A stretch of 6,060 nucleotides of DNA, taken from assembly GCA_048938295.1 (NCBI GenBank), contig JBHLMI010000012.1, positions 25,143 through 31,202 of the forward strand, in the 5' to 3' direction. The position numbers and the translations under genes were made by a program. This stretch comes from Promethearchaeota archaeon (GTDB lineage: Archaea; Asgardarchaeota; Hermodarchaeia; Hermodarchaeales; Hermodarchaeaceae). The notes beneath the pieces are model-generated. The model was not told the origin of the DNA and made no database searches. It saw only the letters and a program-made list of their open reading frames with translations. Numbering within the stretch: the first letter of the stretch is position 1; every line of letters begins with the position of its first letter. Shown piece after piece: positions 42 to 6,060 of this stretch.

Positions 42-965
42 CTACTTTTTGTTTTGTTCACTAGCTGTGAAAACGAGATAGACGCCTTGTGGTGGGATAA
101 TACCTCGTTCTGTGATGAGCGCATCAATGTGTTCATGTCCAGTAACATCGAAGAGTGGATTTCGAATTGTAACAGTTGGATTTATTTCTGCAGTGGGAAC
201 GACTTGGCTTGGATTTCCTTCCTCAAGGGTAATGAGACGCCCTGAAATGGTTTCAGGAGAGAATTTGTAACTCCCCACAGCAATGAGGACACGAACCCGC
301 GCAGCGTGGCATAGTTCTGCCAGCGTCGCTGTTCCTACTTTAGAAACTATTGCCCCATTGGCAGCAATAGCTTCGCCTCCGGTTAACAGAATATCAATAT
401 CGGGTAAGAATATGCGCGCAGCGAAATCTGTAATGAGTGTGACCGGGATGCCAAGGTCTGCAACTTCATTGGCTAAAAGACGGCCTTCAAGGTCGGGACG
501 ACTTTCGGCAACGACTACTTGGATTTCCTTCCCTTGCTCTTTGACCTTTTTCAGAATTGCTAATACTGTGGTGCTACGACATAGTGTTAAGATGCGATCG
601 CCGGATCTAATCCGTTTCGCACCAATTTCCCCTATTCGTTGCTTAGCGTCTGCAATTCGGGCTACAAAGTCATCACAGGCGCTCGCAATTGTTTTACGAA
701 TTTTCTGTAATGAGGCTTTTTTCTGATACACCTGTTGGGCTGCATCTTCGATGTAGTCTAGGCAGTTAAGTAAAGCCGCTGAACTTTGACGAGCTTCCCG
801 GAGGCCATAAGCGGCGACATTAATTTGGTCAAGGAATTCCTTTGTAGATCTGGCAGGCGCCTTTAAAGCAATATCTTTTATCGCTGAGGCGGCTGCAATG
901 GCCGTTCCATCAGCACTAGCGATTTCATAATTCTTGAACTTCTTGATGAGCCAATCAACGTTCAA
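42..965 (-). CDS. eIF2B alpha/beta/delta / ribose-1,5-bisphosphate isomerase family protein; divergent paralog, probably catalytically altered (about 307 aa)
   Basis: Colinear along its whole length with the neighbouring R15Pi: AKRIRSGDRILTLCRS, VVVAESRP, GIPVTLITD, TGGEAIAANGAIVSKVGT, SYKFSPET, RNPLFDVT, IDALITERGIIPPQG. The ORF track starts at 1082, but that would overlap the opposite gene head-to-head. A TTG at 965 (LNVDW...) has GGAGG 9 nt upstream (979-975, minus strand) and aligns with the R15Pi N-terminus, so 965 is the preferred start (inference). Confidence 0.88.
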   Translation of the reverse strand: MNVDWLIKKFKNYEIASADGTAIAAASAIKDIALKAPARSTKEFLDQINVAAYGLREARQSSAALLNCLDYIEDAAQQVYQKKASLQKIRKTIASACDDFVARIADAKQRIGEIGAKRIRSGDRILTLCRSTTVLAILKKVKEQGKEIQVVVAESRPDLEGRLLANEVADLGIPVTLITDFAARIFLPDIDILLTGGEAIAANGAIVSKVGTATLAELCHAARVRVLIAVGSYKFSPETISGRLITLEEGNPSQVVPTAEINPTVTIRNPLFDVTGHEHIDALITERGIIPPQGVYLVFTASEQNKK

Positions 966-1030
966 CGTGTACCGCCTCCATGACAGCATTAAATACCTTG
1001 ATTCGGTATTAAATGCCTCGGCGAAGAGTG
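966..1030. promoter_or_regulatory. Compact divergent (bidirectional) promoter region with two TATA-like elements and RBS-like motifs
   Basis: 65 bp between the divergent starts. ATTAAATA at 988-995 reads as a TATA-like box on +; ATTTAATA at 1014-1007 reads as one on -. GGAGG at 979-975 (-) and a weak GAGTG just before ATG 1031. No TSS data. Confidence 0.5.
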
Positions 1031-2008
1031 ATGACATTAATTCCTCCTGAAACTCAGAAAATCGCAGAGGATATTCAGTCAATGCGTACGCGGGGAGCAG
1101 GACGCATCGCCCGTGCCGCAGCCAAGGGGCTAGTTATTGCTGCACAGGAGTCCAAGGCAAAACAAGTTCCTTCATTTCTTCGAGACATAGCTGTTGCGGC
1201 TCAGTTGCTCTATGAAACAAGACCGACTGCTGTCTCATTACCTAATGCATTGAGTTTTTTTTACACCCGGCTACTCAGCCGGCTTGATCAGACCCAAGGC
1301 ATTGCGGCGTTAAAAGAGGCTAGCGTAAAAATTGGCGAAGGCTTTATCGAGATGTCAAATAATGCAGTGAAAACCATCGGGCAAATTGGTTCACGGCTGA
1401 TCCAAGATGGAGACATCATCTTTACTTATTGTAATAGCGCCACAGCCTTCAGTGTCCTAAAAACCGCTTATTCGATGGGGAAGGAATTTAGTGTCTTCGT
1501 GCCCGAGACCCGACCGAAGTATCAAGGGCATATTACGGCTACCTGGCTGGATAAAGCAGGAATCCCATGTTCGTTGATAACAGATAATTCTATTAGGTAC
1601 CTCATTACACGATCTGACAAGGTGTTTGTGGGAGCTGATGCGATTACGGCTAACGGCGCAGTAGTGAACAAGATCGGAACCAGTTTGGTTGCCCTAGCCG
1701 CAGATGAAGCTCGATTAGACTTTTTTGTCGCAGCTGAAAGCTACAAGTTCAGCCCTGCCACGATGGCAGGTGAGTTAGTAGAAATTGAAGAACGGGATAT
1801 CTCGGAAGTCGTCACGAAAGAAAAGCTTGCAGAGTGGAAACATGTGAGTGTTCGTAATCCTGCATTTGATGTCACGCCTCCAGAATACATCGATGCCATC
1901 ATCACCGAGAAGGGCATCATCCCGCCTCAGGGTGCTATCGCAATATTATATCGTGAGTTTGGATGGTATTCCACGGAACAAGCGTTCCCATGGAATCCTT
2001 ATCTCTAA
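1031..2008 (+). CDS. e2b2: Ribose-1,5-bisphosphate isomerase (R15Pi, eIF2B-like family, archaeal AMP/pentose-bisphosphate pathway), about 325 aa
   Basis: All hallmark motifs of Thermococcus-type R15Pi are present: RGAG (1091-1102), ETRPTAVSLPNAL, TYCNS with the catalytic Cys (1430-1432), ETRPKYQG, VGADAI with the catalytic Asp (1637-1639), NKIGT, ESYKF, NPAFDVTPPEYID, and a C-terminal EFGW...PW tail. Start placed at the second Met (1031), which puts Cys and Asp at 134 and 203 versus 133 and 202 in T. kodakarensis (numbering from memory). The ORF-track start at 1013 lies inside the promoter repeat. Confidence 0.93.
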   Translation: MTLIPPETQKIAEDIQSMRTRGAGRIARAAAKGLVIAAQESKAKQVPSFLRDIAVAAQLLYETRPTAVSLPNALSFFYTRLLSRLDQTQGIAALKEASVKIGEGFIEMSNNAVKTIGQIGSRLIQDGDIIFTYCNSATAFSVLKTAYSMGKEFSVFVPETRPKYQGHITATWLDKAGIPCSLITDNSIRYLITRSDKVFVGADAITANGAVVNKIGTSLVALAADEARLDFFVAAESYKFSPATMAGELVEIEERDISEVVTKEKLAEWKHVSVRNPAFDVTPPEYIDAIITEKGIIPPQGAIAILYREFGWYSTEQAFPWNPYL

Positions 2009-2040: not shown

Positions 2041-2751
2041 CTATTCTTTAGCCTGTGTACGGATTTCCTTTCGCCATTCTTTGATGCGGGCTTCCGGAAT
2101 ACCAGTAAGCAGTGATAGATCTCGGGAATTTTCGGCTTTGAAGTCATCGAGCGACTCTACACCTAGCTCTTTGAGTAGCTTGACATCAGAACGGGTAATC
2201 TCGGGGAGATCTTTGAGCTCCTTAATCTTAGGCTCTTTAGCCTTCTCTTCACGTGCAGCCTTGGTCTTTTCTCGCCCATACCGTTTCGCAGATTCTACGA
2301 GCTTTTCAGCACGATCCCGTTTCAAATCAGTGATACGTGCTAAGCGTCTGGGTGAAATTCTTGCTAGATCATGAATATTCCTTACGCCTGCCACTACAAG
2401 AGTCTCAGAGAGTTTCTTTGCTACGCCACTAAGATTGGTCAAGTCTGTCTCAATGGGCGTGGGCTCCGGTTCAGGTTTTGGCTTTACCTTTGTTGGCTTT
2501 GGCTTCTCAGCTACTGGTGCCGATTTAGACGCCTTTGGAGCGATTTTTAATTTACTGATGCGTTTAGCGTAATCCTTGAGCAGTTTTACATTTTCAGGGT
2601 GTTTTGTTTTCCGCCGACTATCAATGGGAATTGCCATCCAGCGAGCATCCGCTAGCTCGATACCTGCATCTTTCAGTTCAGAGTGGCTGAACCCCCGACC
2701 CCGGCGAGTTTCACCTGTTTGAGGAGCATGAATTTCTGGTCGAAAGGCCAT
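2041..2751 (-). CDS. rpl13e: 50S ribosomal protein eL13 (L13e) fused to a Lys/Pro-rich linker and two C-terminal helix-hairpin-helix (HHH_5/DUF4332-like) modules
   Basis: The N-terminal ~60 aa carry the eL13 signature RRGRGFSHSELKDAG...AR..AIPIDSRRKTKHPENVKLLK. A K/P/A/E-rich linker follows (aa ~66-101), then two similar ~55-aa units: DLTNLSGV...LVVAGVRNIHDLA...L...TDL and ELKDLPEI...LKELGVESLDDF...L...TGI. GGTGA RBS at 2763-2759, 7 nt before the ATG. Confidence 0.88.
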   Translation of the reverse strand: MAFRPEIHAPQTGETRRGRGFSHSELKDAGIELADARWMAIPIDSRRKTKHPENVKLLKDYAKRISKLKIAPKASKSAPVAEKPKPTKVKPKPEPEPTPIETDLTNLSGVAKKLSETLVVAGVRNIHDLARISPRRLARITDLKRDRAEKLVESAKRYGREKTKAAREEKAKEPKIKELKDLPEITRSDVKLLKELGVESLDDFKAENSRDLSLLTGIPEARIKEWRKEIRTQAKE

Positions 2752-2933: not shown

Positions 2934-3551
2934 ATGATGGGACAAAATGATAATCATCGCTTAATGTCTCACACAACCACTGTTGCTGTGAAAGTGAACG
3001 GTGGGGTGGTTCTTGGTACTGAATCGCAAGCCTCAATGGGTTACCTTGTTGCAAGCGATACGGCACCGAAAATTCTGCAGATTACTGACCATACGGCAAT
3101 GACGATTTCAGGATCCGTTGCCGATGCGCAGCAACTCATCAACAATATTCGCGCAATCGCCCAACTCGAATCTTTAGATACCGGCCGTGAGTTAACCGTT
3201 AAAGCGATTTCACGACTCACATCTTCGATTCTATTTCGAAACCGCATGTTTCCCTTAATCACGATGCTTATCGTCGGTGGAGTTGACAAGGAAGGAGCGC
3301 ACATTTACATGCTCGATCCATTGGGCAGTATGTTGGAGGAGGAGAAATTCACTGCCACAGGAAGTGGATCAGTAGTAGCCTATGGTGTTCTTGAAGATGA
3401 GTATCGCGATAACATGGGTGTGGATGAAGGAAAAGAGTTGGTCACACGGGCTGTCAATGCTGCTCGAAAACGCGATATTGCGTCAGGTGGCGCTATTCAG
3501 ATGGCGATAATTAGCAGTGAAGGCGTTGACATCTCACGCGAACAACTTTAA
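2934..3551 (+). CDS. psmB: 20S proteasome beta subunit (Ntn hydrolase) with a 13-residue propeptide
   Basis: TTTVAV mature N-terminus (Thr1 codon at 2973-2975), Glu17 (GTESQ), Lys33 (APKILQI), ISGSVADAQ (Gly47), LIVGGVD, DPLGS, ATGSGS and RDIASGG. Confidence 0.96.
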   Translation: MMGQNDNHRLMSHTTTVAVKVNGGVVLGTESQASMGYLVASDTAPKILQITDHTAMTISGSVADAQQLINNIRAIAQLESLDTGRELTVKAISRLTSSILFRNRMFPLITMLIVGGVDKEGAHIYMLDPLGSMLEEEKFTATGSGSVVAYGVLEDEYRDNMGVDEGKELVTRAVNAARKRDIASGGAIQMAIISSEGVDISREQL

Positions 3552-3577: not shown

Positions 3578-4537
3578 CTAGATCACACAGCAGGCATTGT
3601 GTTTGATGACGGTATAATCATTTTTTTCTAGGTATTGGAGCGTAGCTCTGGTAGGCTGAACAAGACGAGTAACCCCCGCCTGAACTGCGAGCTGTTCCGT
3701 TTGATGTCGAATGCGTCCACGGGGTCGCATACAACCAAGGGCGATTTCTGTTTTGGGGAAGAGGAGCCGGGCGATAGCACAGATGCGAGCAATGTCATAG
3801 GGGTGTGGAGGTGGGCTATTACTCATAGGTGTGCCTTTAGTAGGCATTAAGGCGATAATAACAATGACTCTAGGTTCAATGGTTTGTTTGATGAGTTGTA
3901 AGGCATCAAATTCACCGACCAGTTTTCCATTACGGAGACCAACACAAATGTGGGGGGCTGTGGAAATCCTGTGCTTTCTAAGTGCTGTTAGTGTTGTAAA
4001 ATAATCCTTTGTGGTTCGTTGCTGCAACCCATAGACTAGCTGAATAGTTGAGTCGTCACCTACAACATCGACCGACGCACAGTCTATTCCCGTTTGAGAT
4101 AGTTCATCTGCTTGAGAATCGGTGAGGAATCCCGTATGAACATTCAGAAAAAGGTTTGATGAGCGCTTGATGTGTGCTAGAGCGGGTAGAAAGGGAGTAA
4201 GAGGAACAGTTCCGGTGTCGTCGCAGCCGCCACTGATTAGGCAGCCGACACCTCCTCGGTGATCTAGTGCTTCACAGAATGCGATGAGGTTCTGAGGGGT
4301 TGTAATCGCGTGCATTGCTTGAAGGAAATGCCTGGCACAATGTTGACAATTTAGTTTACAGTGATGCCCCGTAATAGAAATAGAGGGAAATTCAGTACCT
4401 GGATGGAAAATGGTAATTTGCCGATTGAAGGCTTCTTCGGTCAGGGTTTGGGTATGTGAGAATAGTTCTGTAAGTTCTGTGGAGGACACTTCGAACCAGT
4501 CACGCAGATTGTTTGCTCCCTTGCTCAAGGAGCTCAT
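3578..4537 (-). CDS. lipS1: Radical SAM sulfur-insertion protein, LipS1-type lipoyl synthase subunit (biotin-synthase-like)
   Basis: CxxxCxxC (CKLNCQHC, 4360-4337) preceded by FPSISITG, then GCLISGGCD and NVHTG. GCMR (3736-3725) and the C-terminal CC (3592-3587) are the two motifs described as distinguishing LipS1. Start placed at ATG 4537, which forms an ATGA overlap with the upstream ligase stop; the ORF track starts at 4564. Confidence 0.85.
   Translation of the reverse strand: MSSLSKGANNLRDWFEVSSTELTELFSHTQTLTEEAFNRQITIFHPGTEFPSISITGHHCKLNCQHCARHFLQAMHAITTPQNLIAFCEALDHRGGVGCLISGGCDDTGTVPLTPFLPALAHIKRSSNLFLNVHTGFLTDSQADELSQTGIDCASVDVVGDDSTIQLVYGLQQRTTKDYFTTLTALRKHRISTAPHICVGLRNGKLVGEFDALQLIKQTIEPRVIVIIALMPTKGTPMSNSPPPHPYDIARICAIARLLFPKTEIALGCMRPRGRIRHQTEQLAVQAGVTRLVQPTRATLQYLEKNDYTVIKHNACCVI
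3621..3627 (+). terminator. Possible archaeal oligo-T terminator for psmB (lies inside the 3' end of lipS1 on the opposite strand)
   Basis: T7 run ~70 nt after the psmB stop. It could equally just reflect the GAA AAA AAT codons of lipS1. Confidence 0.2.
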
Positions 4538-5331
4538 TTCTTTAGCCCCCGTTGGTATGTCCAATCGGACTTTGCATACCAGGATCCTGCTATTTTTTGG
4601 GCAGATTGGAGTTCAGCGTCAGTTAAACCTTCATCGTAGAACCGTGCCGGCAATGTGCTGGATAATCCTTCAATCAGGGCTTCTTCGATTTGACCGAAGG
4701 AGGGAGGTGTTCCGAGTTCATGCTGTAATGAGGTCATGCTATTAACTGCCTTCTTGATTATAGTTTCATCGGCTTTTCGTTTGTTCACCTTCAAGACGGT
4801 GAACATCTTTACAAAATCGAGTTTGCGAAGGATCGTGCCATGCTGAAGCAAGGTGTTTCCACGACGGGATTGGGCATTTCCAGAGATTTTCCGTTTCTTA
4901 ACGAAGAGGTTGGGACAAAAATTCTCTGACCCAGCTGAGTATTTCGCACTGACACCAAGCCGACTCAACCCCATAAGGAGGCCTTGGCATAGATACTGGT
5001 ACATTTCAACGATGTCGGACGAGAGTTGCATATCTTGAGTTCGACAGATAATACTGTAGGTAAGCTCGCCTTCAAAATCATGATACACGGCGCCACCGCT
5101 TGATAGTCGCCGGACGATGTCAACGTTGAGTTTTCGGCAGGCTTCTACATCGACTTCATCTTCGAGATGTTGAAATCGTCCAATAGATACAGCTGAGGGT
5201 TTCCAGCGGTAGAAACGAACCGTATTGGCAGCAGTTTCTTTATGGCAGGCATCAAGCAGAACATGATCAATGGCCATATTTTCATAGGCGTTGAAAATAC
5301 CGGTGCGGATTAAGCGCCATAGTTTTGTCAT
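4534..5331 (-). CDS. lplA: Lipoate/octanoate-protein ligase family, catalytic domain only (LplA-N / sLplA-like; no C-terminal LplB domain), 265 aa
   Basis: WRLI, NMAIDHVLL, VRFYRWKPSAVSIGRFQ, VRRLSSGGAVYHD, ELTYSI, KISGNAQ (conserved Lys at 4890-4888) and LLQHGTIL. It lies between lipS2 and lipS1, with a 3-bp gap upstream and a 4-bp overlap downstream. Confidence 0.9.
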   Translation of the reverse strand: MTKLWRLIRTGIFNAYENMAIDHVLLDACHKETAANTVRFYRWKPSAVSIGRFQHLEDEVDVEACRKLNVDIVRRLSSGGAVYHDFEGELTYSIICRTQDMQLSSDIVEMYQYLCQGLLMGLSRLGVSAKYSAGSENFCPNLFVKKRKISGNAQSRRGNTLLQHGTILRKLDFVKMFTVLKVNKRKADETIIKKAVNSMTSLQHELGTPPSFGQIEEALIEGLSSTLPARFYDEGLTDAELQSAQKIAGSWYAKSDWTYQRGLKK

Positions 5332-5334
5332 GTA

Positions 5335-6060
5335 TCAGAGAACTCCTGCCAGTTGGTATGTAATTTCTTCAAGAACTTGCGCAGTAGGTGCTTCTGGATA
5401 GTTGAAGATTGGGCCTCCTGGTTGCTCTGTAAAGAAAGGGCGATTACAAGACGGGCAACCTGTCGTTTGAAAAGCCTTCCCTCGTGCAATAATATCCACT
5501 AGGATTTCTCTAGGCAACCCAAATTTCGTAATATCCTGTGTTGAGTTGTATTGAATCTTATCCAAGGTTACAAGTCGGTTTTGCAGCAAATGAAGAGCTA
5601 GTTGAATTCGACGGTATTGTTGAAGTGTTGGACGTTCCCGGTTCGCTAAAGGGGTTCCAAGAATAGGTGTGAAGGGGAATAGTCCAACGGTGATGGATTT
5701 GTTGACAAGCTGGTGGATTAGATTGACCACTTGGTGTTCTGTTTCACCTAACCCGATGATGAGATGCGTAGTCGCCCGATCCGGTCCAAAAATCGATCGT
5801 GCAGAGTTCAAGGCACGAAAATGGTGCTTCCAAGAAAAAGGACCTTTCACTCCAGTACCTTTGATTTCATTAAACAATCTTGGGGTAACAGCGTCAAGCG
5901 ATACTGCCACACGGTCAACCCCTTGGTCATAAAGGGCTTGGAACTGCTTAGCTTTCATTGGAGGAAGTGCAATGGATAGGGGGATATTTGGCAGATGGCT
6001 CCTGAAGAGGGAAACCAACTGTGTTAGATTTTCGAACAGTTTTGGAGAACAAAGTGTTTG
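5335..6060 (-). CDS. lipS2: Radical SAM protein, LipS2-type lipoyl synthase subunit (5'-truncated by the window edge)
   Basis: TTGCPSCNRP (5466-5437) matches the LipS2 TxGCPxC(N/D)RP motif; also VAVSLDA, HLIIGLGETE and LFPFTPILGT. The frame stays open from 6018 to the window end (QTLCSPKLFENLTQL...), so the TTG at 6018 is not the true start, and the CxxxCxxC motif is expected upstream of 6060. Confidence 0.87.
   Translation of the reverse strand, partial: QTLCSPKLFENLTQLVSLFRSHLPNIPLSIALPPMKAKQFQALYDQGVDRVAVSLDAVTPRLFNEIKGTGVKGPFSWKHHFRALNSARSIFGPDRATTHLIIGLGETEHQVVNLIHQLVNKSITVGLFPFTPILGTPLANRERPTLQQYRRIQLALHLLQNRLVTLDKIQYNSTQDITKFGLPREILVDIIARGKAFQTTGCPSCNRPFFTEQPGGPIFNYPEAPTAQVLEEITYQLAGVL

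What the first reader, a model, noticed from the sequence alone, without database searches (positions are those of the whole stretch)
2041..2751. Ribosomal protein eL13 carrying a flexible linker and two tandem helix-hairpin-helix modules
Seen: the eL13 core occupies only aa ~1-65 (2751-2557) of a 236-aa protein. It is followed by a K/P/A/E-rich low-complexity linker (KAPKASKSAPVAEKPKPTKVKPKPEPEPTP-like, ~2556-2449), HhH unit 1 (~2448-2281), a charged spacer and HhH unit 2 (~2223-2056). Both units fit L..L.[GE][VI]......L...GV.[NS][IL].D[LF].......L...T[DG][LI], the HHH_5/DUF4332 pattern also seen in RadA N-terminal and bacterial NusA AR domains. Established: typical archaeal eL13 is about 80 aa; HhH modules bind nucleic acid non-specifically or mediate protein contacts; HhH fusions occur on some archaeal eL32. 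Inference: this tethers two nucleic-acid- or protein-binding modules on the 50S surface, for example to replace or clamp rRNA expansion segments, link ribosomes to RNA polymerase or DNA, or support hibernation. An extra-ribosomal role is also possible.
Basis: partly seen in the sequence, partly recalled or inferred. Interest (0 to 1): 0.68.

Follow-up and report, generated by a model that had tools for sequence, protein, structure and literature searches.

The report
Asgard eL13 with two-HhH arm
The only gene for ribosomal protein eL13 found in this Hermodarchaeia (Asgard) archaeon carries a conserved flexible arm ending in two small helix-hairpin-helix domains, an add-on that is common on archaeal eL13, apparently undescribed, and most likely grips nearby ribosomal RNA such as this lineage's enlarged ES9 segment.

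Summary
Confirmed. 2041-2751 (-) is one 236-aa ORF: eL13 core (aa 1-70), disordered K/P linker, two five-helix HhH_5 domains joined by a fixed-length helix. It is the only eL13 found in this Hermodarchaeia genome, and all 18 family relatives have the fused form, so it is no artefact. Both HhH units are as conserved as the core. The fusion is not peculiar to this lineage: eL13 carries 1-4 HhH units in 15 of 23 Asgard families sampled, and also in proteins labelled Bathyarchaeota, Hydrothermarchaeales and Methanofastidiosia. In three families lacking it, an HhH sits on eL33 instead. Hermodarchaeia 23S rRNA has a 125-nt forked ES9, the segment that human eL13's C-terminal helix binds, and unit 1 has an invariant arginine patch. 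Best reading (0.4): a tethered clamp on surface rRNA helices. HhH arms also occur with short ES9, so protein docking or binding DNA/mRNA in trans stay open. Ten literature searches found no description. This scan already noted eL13-HhH arms on other genomes. New variant of a known kind; ligand untested.

The parts
2041..2751 (-). Complete gene, eL13 with two-HhH arm, 236 aa; only eL13 found in the genome
2542..2751 (-). eL13 core, aa 1-70
   Evidence: Pfam PF01294 E 2.5e-11; structural match to P. calidifontis eL13 9e6q_AH Z 7.9, rmsd 2.2, 66 aa
2458..2541 (-). K/P/A/E-rich disordered tether, aa 71-98, variable in length and sequence
   Evidence: pLDDT<50; mean identity 0.43, pN/pS 0.50
2272..2457 (-). 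HhH unit 1, aa 99-160; net basic, conserved K112 K113 R135 R136 R139 K144 R145 R147 K150 K156; first hairpin lacks its second glycine
   Evidence: fold matches NusA AR1/AR2 Z 9.5-9.6, POLQ HhH Z 9.7
2230..2271 (-). Charged helical spacer, aa 161-174, predicted to continue the last helix of unit 1; unit spacing fixed at 74-75 aa across the family
2047..2229 (-). HhH unit 2, aa 175-235; near-neutral, first hairpin lacks both glycines, second hairpin and W226 conserved
   Evidence: fold match to RAD51-paralogue N-domain Z 10.1, rmsd 1.8, 61 aa
2759..2763 (-). GGTGA, Shine-Dalgarno-like motif 7 nt before the ATG
   Evidence: read from the sequence; function inferred, conservation not tested

Best explanation
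This is the cell's working ribosomal eL13. The core docks at its usual site on the solvent side of the large subunit (inferred from conserved core and single copy). A 30-residue flexible tether carries a semi-rigid HhH-helix-HhH dumbbell (architecture shown; rigidity predicted). The dumbbell most likely binds the backbone of double-helical RNA without reading sequence, and its most likely partner is neighbouring surface rRNA, in this lineage the 125-nt forked ES9 (helix 30). It would do by other means what the unrelated C-terminal helices of eukaryotic eL13 do on ES7L/ES9L: fold, hold down or shield exposed helices. Binding and partner are inferred, not shown.
For: Single eL13 in G000; fused in 18/18 relatives. 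Units as conserved as the core: identity 0.71-0.72 vs 0.73, pN/pS 0.23-0.26 vs 0.23 (synonymous sites near saturation). Ten conserved basic residues in unit 1, net +3 to +7. ES9 stretch is 125 nt in 3/3 Hermodarchaeia 23S genes, with compensatory changes. Human eL13 C-terminal region binds ES9L and ES7L (PMC10665555; PMC7988564). All four families with long ES9 and one architecture carry eL13-HhH. Where HhH is missing other tails occur, with weak hits to an RNase H1 N-terminal domain (E 5.5e-4) or an HTH (E 0.11).
Against: Five families with a short ES9 (33-37 nt) also carry 1-2 HhH units, so the arm does not depend on ES9; 4/4 vs 5/10 families is about p 0.13 by hand and kin are not independent. 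One genome with a 90-nt ES9 has no HhH on eL13 (G304). The GhG hairpin of DNA-binding HhH motifs is degenerate in both units here. Units of Loki and Jordarchaeia are mostly net acidic. The 5' half of this genome's own 23S is not assembled, so its ES9 is inferred from relatives.
Confidence: 0.4

Rival explanations
1. Protein-docking platform, like NusA AR1/AR2: the tandem domains recruit a protein (transcription, ribosome assembly, hibernation or quality-control factor, or a neighbouring r-protein) to the large subunit.
For: Top structural matches include NusA AR1 and AR2 in their protein complexes, Z 9.5-9.6; tandem NusA ARs match weakly by sequence, E about 0.1. Hairpin glycines lost; unit 2 is near neutral with invariant E207, D211, L212, L214, E220, W226.
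Against: NusA ARs are acidic (own knowledge) while unit 1 is strongly basic. No partner gene is linked: neighbours differ between families. Shared fold shows no function.
Confidence: 0.27
2. The arm binds nucleic acid in trans (chromosomal DNA, nascent mRNA or RNA:DNA hybrid) and keeps ribosomes near the nucleoid or transcript.
For: The same module sits on RadA in this genome. Intact GhG hairpins in Loki, Jordarchaeia and others. The arm appears on eL33 in Odin and two other families that lack eL13-HhH, so the anchor point may matter less than having an arm. Linkers reach over 100 aa in some lineages.
Against: GhG hairpin degenerate in this family; tether here only about 30 aa; several families have an HhH on neither eL13 nor eL33.
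Confidence: 0.2
3. Extra-ribosomal or accessory role: free eL13 uses the arm for autoregulation, solubility or chaperoning, and the arm does nothing on the ribosome.
For: Extra-ribosomal roles are proposed for human eL13 (title of PMC10665555). The arm is absent in some Thorarchaeia genera and split off by a stop in one genome.
Against: Strong conservation and fixed unit spacing fit a defined binding geometry; no Rfam element in the window.
Confidence: 0.12
4. Assembly artefact or read-through joining two genes.
For: None found.
Against: Same fusion in dozens of independent assemblies; second run spans the junction.
Confidence: 0.01

Closest known systems
Ribosomal protein eL13 (Pfam PF01294; NCBIfam PRK12277; P. 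calidifontis 9E6Q chain AH; eukaryotic RPL13)
   Same: Core motifs and fold (Z 7.9, rmsd 2.2); single-copy gene.
   Different: C-terminal half is a tether plus two HhH domains. The archaeal model is 83 aa; the whole protein misses its cut-off (68.8 vs 96 bits). Eukaryotic and Pyrobaculum extensions did not align to the arm.
HhH-bearing r-proteins in curated models: long eL32 (PRK12766, 238 positions; PDB 9L94 chain Q) and long bL21 (PRK12278-1)
   Same: Same kind of HhH module joined to a large-subunit protein (E 4.7e-6 and 1.8e-6; weak PDB match).
   Different: Different carrier protein, tandem units here. This genome's eL32 gave no HhH hit.
NusA AR1/AR2 and RadA/Rad51 N-terminal domain ((HhH)2, SAM-like fold)
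   Same: Fold, Z 9.3-10.1; tandem arrangement as in NusA.
   Different: Basic rather than acidic unit 1; attached to a ribosomal protein; far below NusA and RadA cut-offs.
Supersized ES9 of Lokiarchaeota LSU rRNA (Penev 2020, PMC7594248; PMC9834061)
   Same: Hermodarchaeia have an expansion in the same helix 30.
   Different: Forked tip with two UUCG hairpins; in the passages read these papers name no protein partner for it.

Membership tests
Ribosomal protein eL13 | PF01294 match over the curated cut-off | tested here: met
   44.2 vs 24.9 bits
Ribosomal protein eL13 | Fold of the core | tested here: met
   9e6q_AH Z 7.9, rmsd 2.2, 66 aa; Foldseek top rows all eL13, best E 1.5e-3
Ribosomal protein eL13 | Orthologue, no second short copy | tested here: met
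   one match in G000, 91.6% complete; one relative has two copies, both fused
Ribosomal protein eL13 | Archaeal equivalog PRK12277 cut-off | tested here: not met
   68.8 vs 96 bits, model positions 15-80 of 83
Ribosomal protein eL13 | Present in the large subunit in vivo | not testable with these tools
   needs proteomics or cryo-EM
HHH_5 / (HhH)2 domain | Profile match and five-helix fold for each unit | tested here: met
   35.9 and 28.1 bits vs 27; Z 9.5-10.1
Canonical DNA-binding HhH motif | GhG hairpin in the first HhH motif | tested here: not met
   unit 1 GV[AT]KK, unit 2 [PH][ED]I[TN]R
Canonical DNA-binding HhH motif | Binds duplex nucleic acid | not testable with these tools
   needs binding assay
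NusA acidic repeats | TIGR01954 cut-off and acidic character | tested here: not met
   28.2 vs 48.15 bits; unit charges +5 and +1
DUF4332 | Full-length match to PF14229 | tested here: inconclusive
   24.2 vs 23.2 bits but only positions 53-92 of 122

The most novel reading that the evidence does not exclude
Many archaea carry an undescribed, modular 'arm' on the back of the large ribosomal subunit (1-4 HhH domains on eL13, or on eL33 or eL32 in other lineages). It predates rRNA expansion and either allowed ES9 to grow, as a prokaryotic forerunner of the protein-expansion-segment contacts of eukaryotic ribosomes, or ties ribosomes to DNA or the transcription machinery.
Probability: 0.25. Interest if true: 0.75.

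Novelty: new variant of a known kind. Interest (0 to 1): 0.48.

Why it matters
No high-resolution Asgard ribosome structure turned up in my searches, and how eukaryote-like expansion segments were first stabilised is open. A conserved arm on the very protein that grips ES9L in eukaryotes, in a lineage with a 125-nt ES9, gives a small, expressible protein-RNA pair to test. The fusion also confuses annotation: homologues are labelled nuclease or NusA. It is a widespread feature rather than a one-off, and this scan has seen it before, so this locus is one more instance.

Tried and rejected
Ten literature searches found no paper on eL13-HhH; subscription papers are not covered. Homodimer prediction for aa 99-236: no verdict. 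No RNA holder listed among sequencing runs. No Rfam match, and promoter/terminator scans at chance level. Recent internal duplication of the two units: rejected, 23% identity, BLAST E 0.18, not grouped together in a poorly resolved 65-column tree. Strict dependence of the arm on long ES9: rejected. ES9 insert as an intron: unlikely, same length in two genera with paired changes and UUCG loops. Strict either/or between eL13-HhH and eL33-HhH: rejected, one family has both and several have neither. Conserved gene neighbourhood across families: none. A genome-level survey outside Asgard was not possible; the phylum-wide rRNA search failed. ES9 of G302 could not be read (wrong strand or poor anchor). 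One search counts are biased because the query was a fusion profile.

Full report
Observation. The minus-strand ORF 2041-2751 encodes 236 aa. Pfam gives Ribosomal_L13e at aa 14-80 (E 2.5e-11) and two HHH_5 stretches; each unit passes the HHH_5 cut-off alone. AlphaFold (mean pLDDT 76.6, pTM 0.38) shows a folded core to aa 70, disorder at aa 71-98, and two five-helix domains linked by a helix running aa 145-172. Structure search matches the core to P. calidifontis eL13 (Z 7.9) and the units to a RAD51-paralogue N-domain (Z 10.1), POLQ (9.7) and NusA AR1/AR2 (9.5-9.6).

Host and reality. Close homologues come mostly from Hermodarchaeia records, including Ca. Hermodarchaeum yapensis. The gene is the only eL13 found in G000 (91.6% complete) and all 18 family genomes have the fused form. 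A second run of the same study has one contig across core, linker and unit 1. It is not an assembly artefact. The gene stands alone: convergent with a ribose-1,5-bisphosphate isomerase gene, divergent from a proteasome beta gene. These neighbours recur within the family but not between families.

Selection. Over 19 family sequences mean identity is 0.73 (core), 0.43 (linker), 0.71 (unit 1), 0.65 (spacer), 0.72 (unit 2); pN/pS is 0.23, 0.50, 0.26, 0.27, 0.23, with synonymous sites near saturation. Unit spacing is fixed at 74-75 aa while the linker varies. Unit 1 keeps ten basic positions in at least 90% of 47 sequences, clustered round its second hairpin; unit 2 is mixed. The GhG hairpin typical of DNA-binding HhH motifs is altered in both units, while Loki and Jordarchaeia units keep it. 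The two units share 23% identity, no more than with units of other lineages.

Range. In 300 Asgard genomes eL13 was found in 185. Of 23 families whose eL13 I extracted, 15 carry HhH units: one in Thorarchaeia (most), Lokiarchaeia family f9, Jordarchaeia, Baldrarchaeia, Asgardarchaeum and three unnamed families; two in Hermodarchaeia, Freyarchaeum and two others; three or four in three Lokiarchaeia-class or unnamed families. None was found in Odin, Njord and five further families, and one family (f23) is mixed. Outside Asgard, eL13-HhH proteins are labelled Bathyarchaeota, Hydrothermarchaeales and Methanofastidiosia. So the arm is common on archaeal eL13 and the two-unit form is the Hermodarchaeia version. 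Tails can also be swapped: one genome has two repeats with a weak RNase H1 N-terminal hit, another a weak HTH-like domain (leads only).

A second carrier. Odin genomes and two families in which no eL13 was found carry an N-terminal HhH on an eL33-like protein. One family has both, several have neither. Curated long eL32 and bL21 models also match the module. In G000 the broad HhH profile hits only eL13, RadA and two membrane proteins clearly; its eL33 has a basic tail without HhH.

rRNA context. Human eL13's C-terminal region binds ES7L and ES9L (PMC10665555; PMC7988564), and ES9 growth in Asgard lies in helix 30 (PMC7594248). Three Hermodarchaeia 23S genes (one same genus, two same family) have 125 nt between the flanking anchors, against 27-39 nt in most other Asgard families; it folds as a long stem with two UUCG hairpins and shows compensatory changes. 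G000's own 23S lacks this part. Long ES9 (90-174 nt) occurs in four families that all carry eL13-HhH, and in one genome with a non-HhH tail. Short ES9 occurs with HhH in five families and without in five. The arm therefore does not need a long ES9; the association in the other direction is suggestive only.

Mechanism. Shown: architecture, single copy, conservation, basic patch, enlarged ES9 in relatives. Inferred: ribosome incorporation, RNA binding, the partner. I favour a tethered clamp on surface rRNA helices (0.40) over a protein-docking platform (0.27), binding of DNA or mRNA in trans (0.20) and an extra-ribosomal role (0.12). The differing charge and hairpin state among lineages warn that the ligand may not be the same everywhere.

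Comparison and novelty. It is a member of the eL13 family by Pfam, fold and orthology, though under the archaeal equivalog cut-off. The units are HHH_5 domains but fail the GhG test and are not NusA repeats. HhH-bearing r-proteins exist in curated models, so this is a new variant of a known kind. Ten searches of the open literature found no description of eL13-HhH. This scan has noted it repeatedly on other genomes; those notes are not counted as support. Interest 0.48.

Noticed in passing
L102:1920-2110 (G006), L101, L100; Hermodarchaeia 23S helix 30: 125-nt forked ES9 with two UUCG hairpins in three genomes of two genera; not found reported for this lineage in the papers read.
   Followed up: yes
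L099 (G000:C20:43359-46863): This genome's partial 23S has a group I intron (Rfam 61 bits), a roughly 680-nt insertion near the peptidyl-transferase region with a LAGLIDADG-like ORF by eye, and a 61-nt insert at helix 98/ES39.
   Followed up: partly
L102, 23S model position about 657: 33-nt hairpin insertion in a loop, present in G006 only; possible mini-intron.
   Followed up: no
window 42-2008: Head-to-head pair of ribose-1,5-bisphosphate isomerase/eIF-2B family genes; one passes TIGR00511 (380 vs 314), the other does not (269). Covered by e1-5395474.
   Followed up: no
window 2934-3551: Proteasome beta subunit with His, not the usual Gly, before the TTT start of the mature chain; same in relative L098.
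   Followed up: no
window 3578-6060: LipS2-like, lipoate ligase and LipS1 genes in a row, an archaeal lipoate synthesis cluster.
   Followed up: no
L183, L188, L207, L255, L256, L258, L260: eL33-like proteins with an N-terminal HhH arm in Odin and three other Asgard families.
   Followed up: yes
L158, L156, L046, L054: eL13 with other tails: HTH-like, an unassigned short helical module, RNase H1 N-domain-like repeats, and a 100-aa helical domain.
   Followed up: partly
P0300, P0323, P0287: eL13 (with HhH) in records labelled Hydrothermarchaeales, Methanofastidiosia and Euryarchaeota, while a review table lists eL13 as absent from Euryarchaeota; labels not verified.
   Followed up: no
L032 (G145), G335, G331: Stops between the eL13 core and the HhH part in single genomes; error or real split.
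   Followed up: no
L192 (G074): Arf/Rag-type small GTPase with an N-terminal HhH-like module.
   Followed up: no
L152 (G071), L150 (G204): eL13-HhH copies that look foreign to their bins; probable contamination.
   Followed up: no
G000 C41:37718-38407 and C65:4410-5930: Two membrane proteins with C-terminal HhH modules.
   Followed up: no
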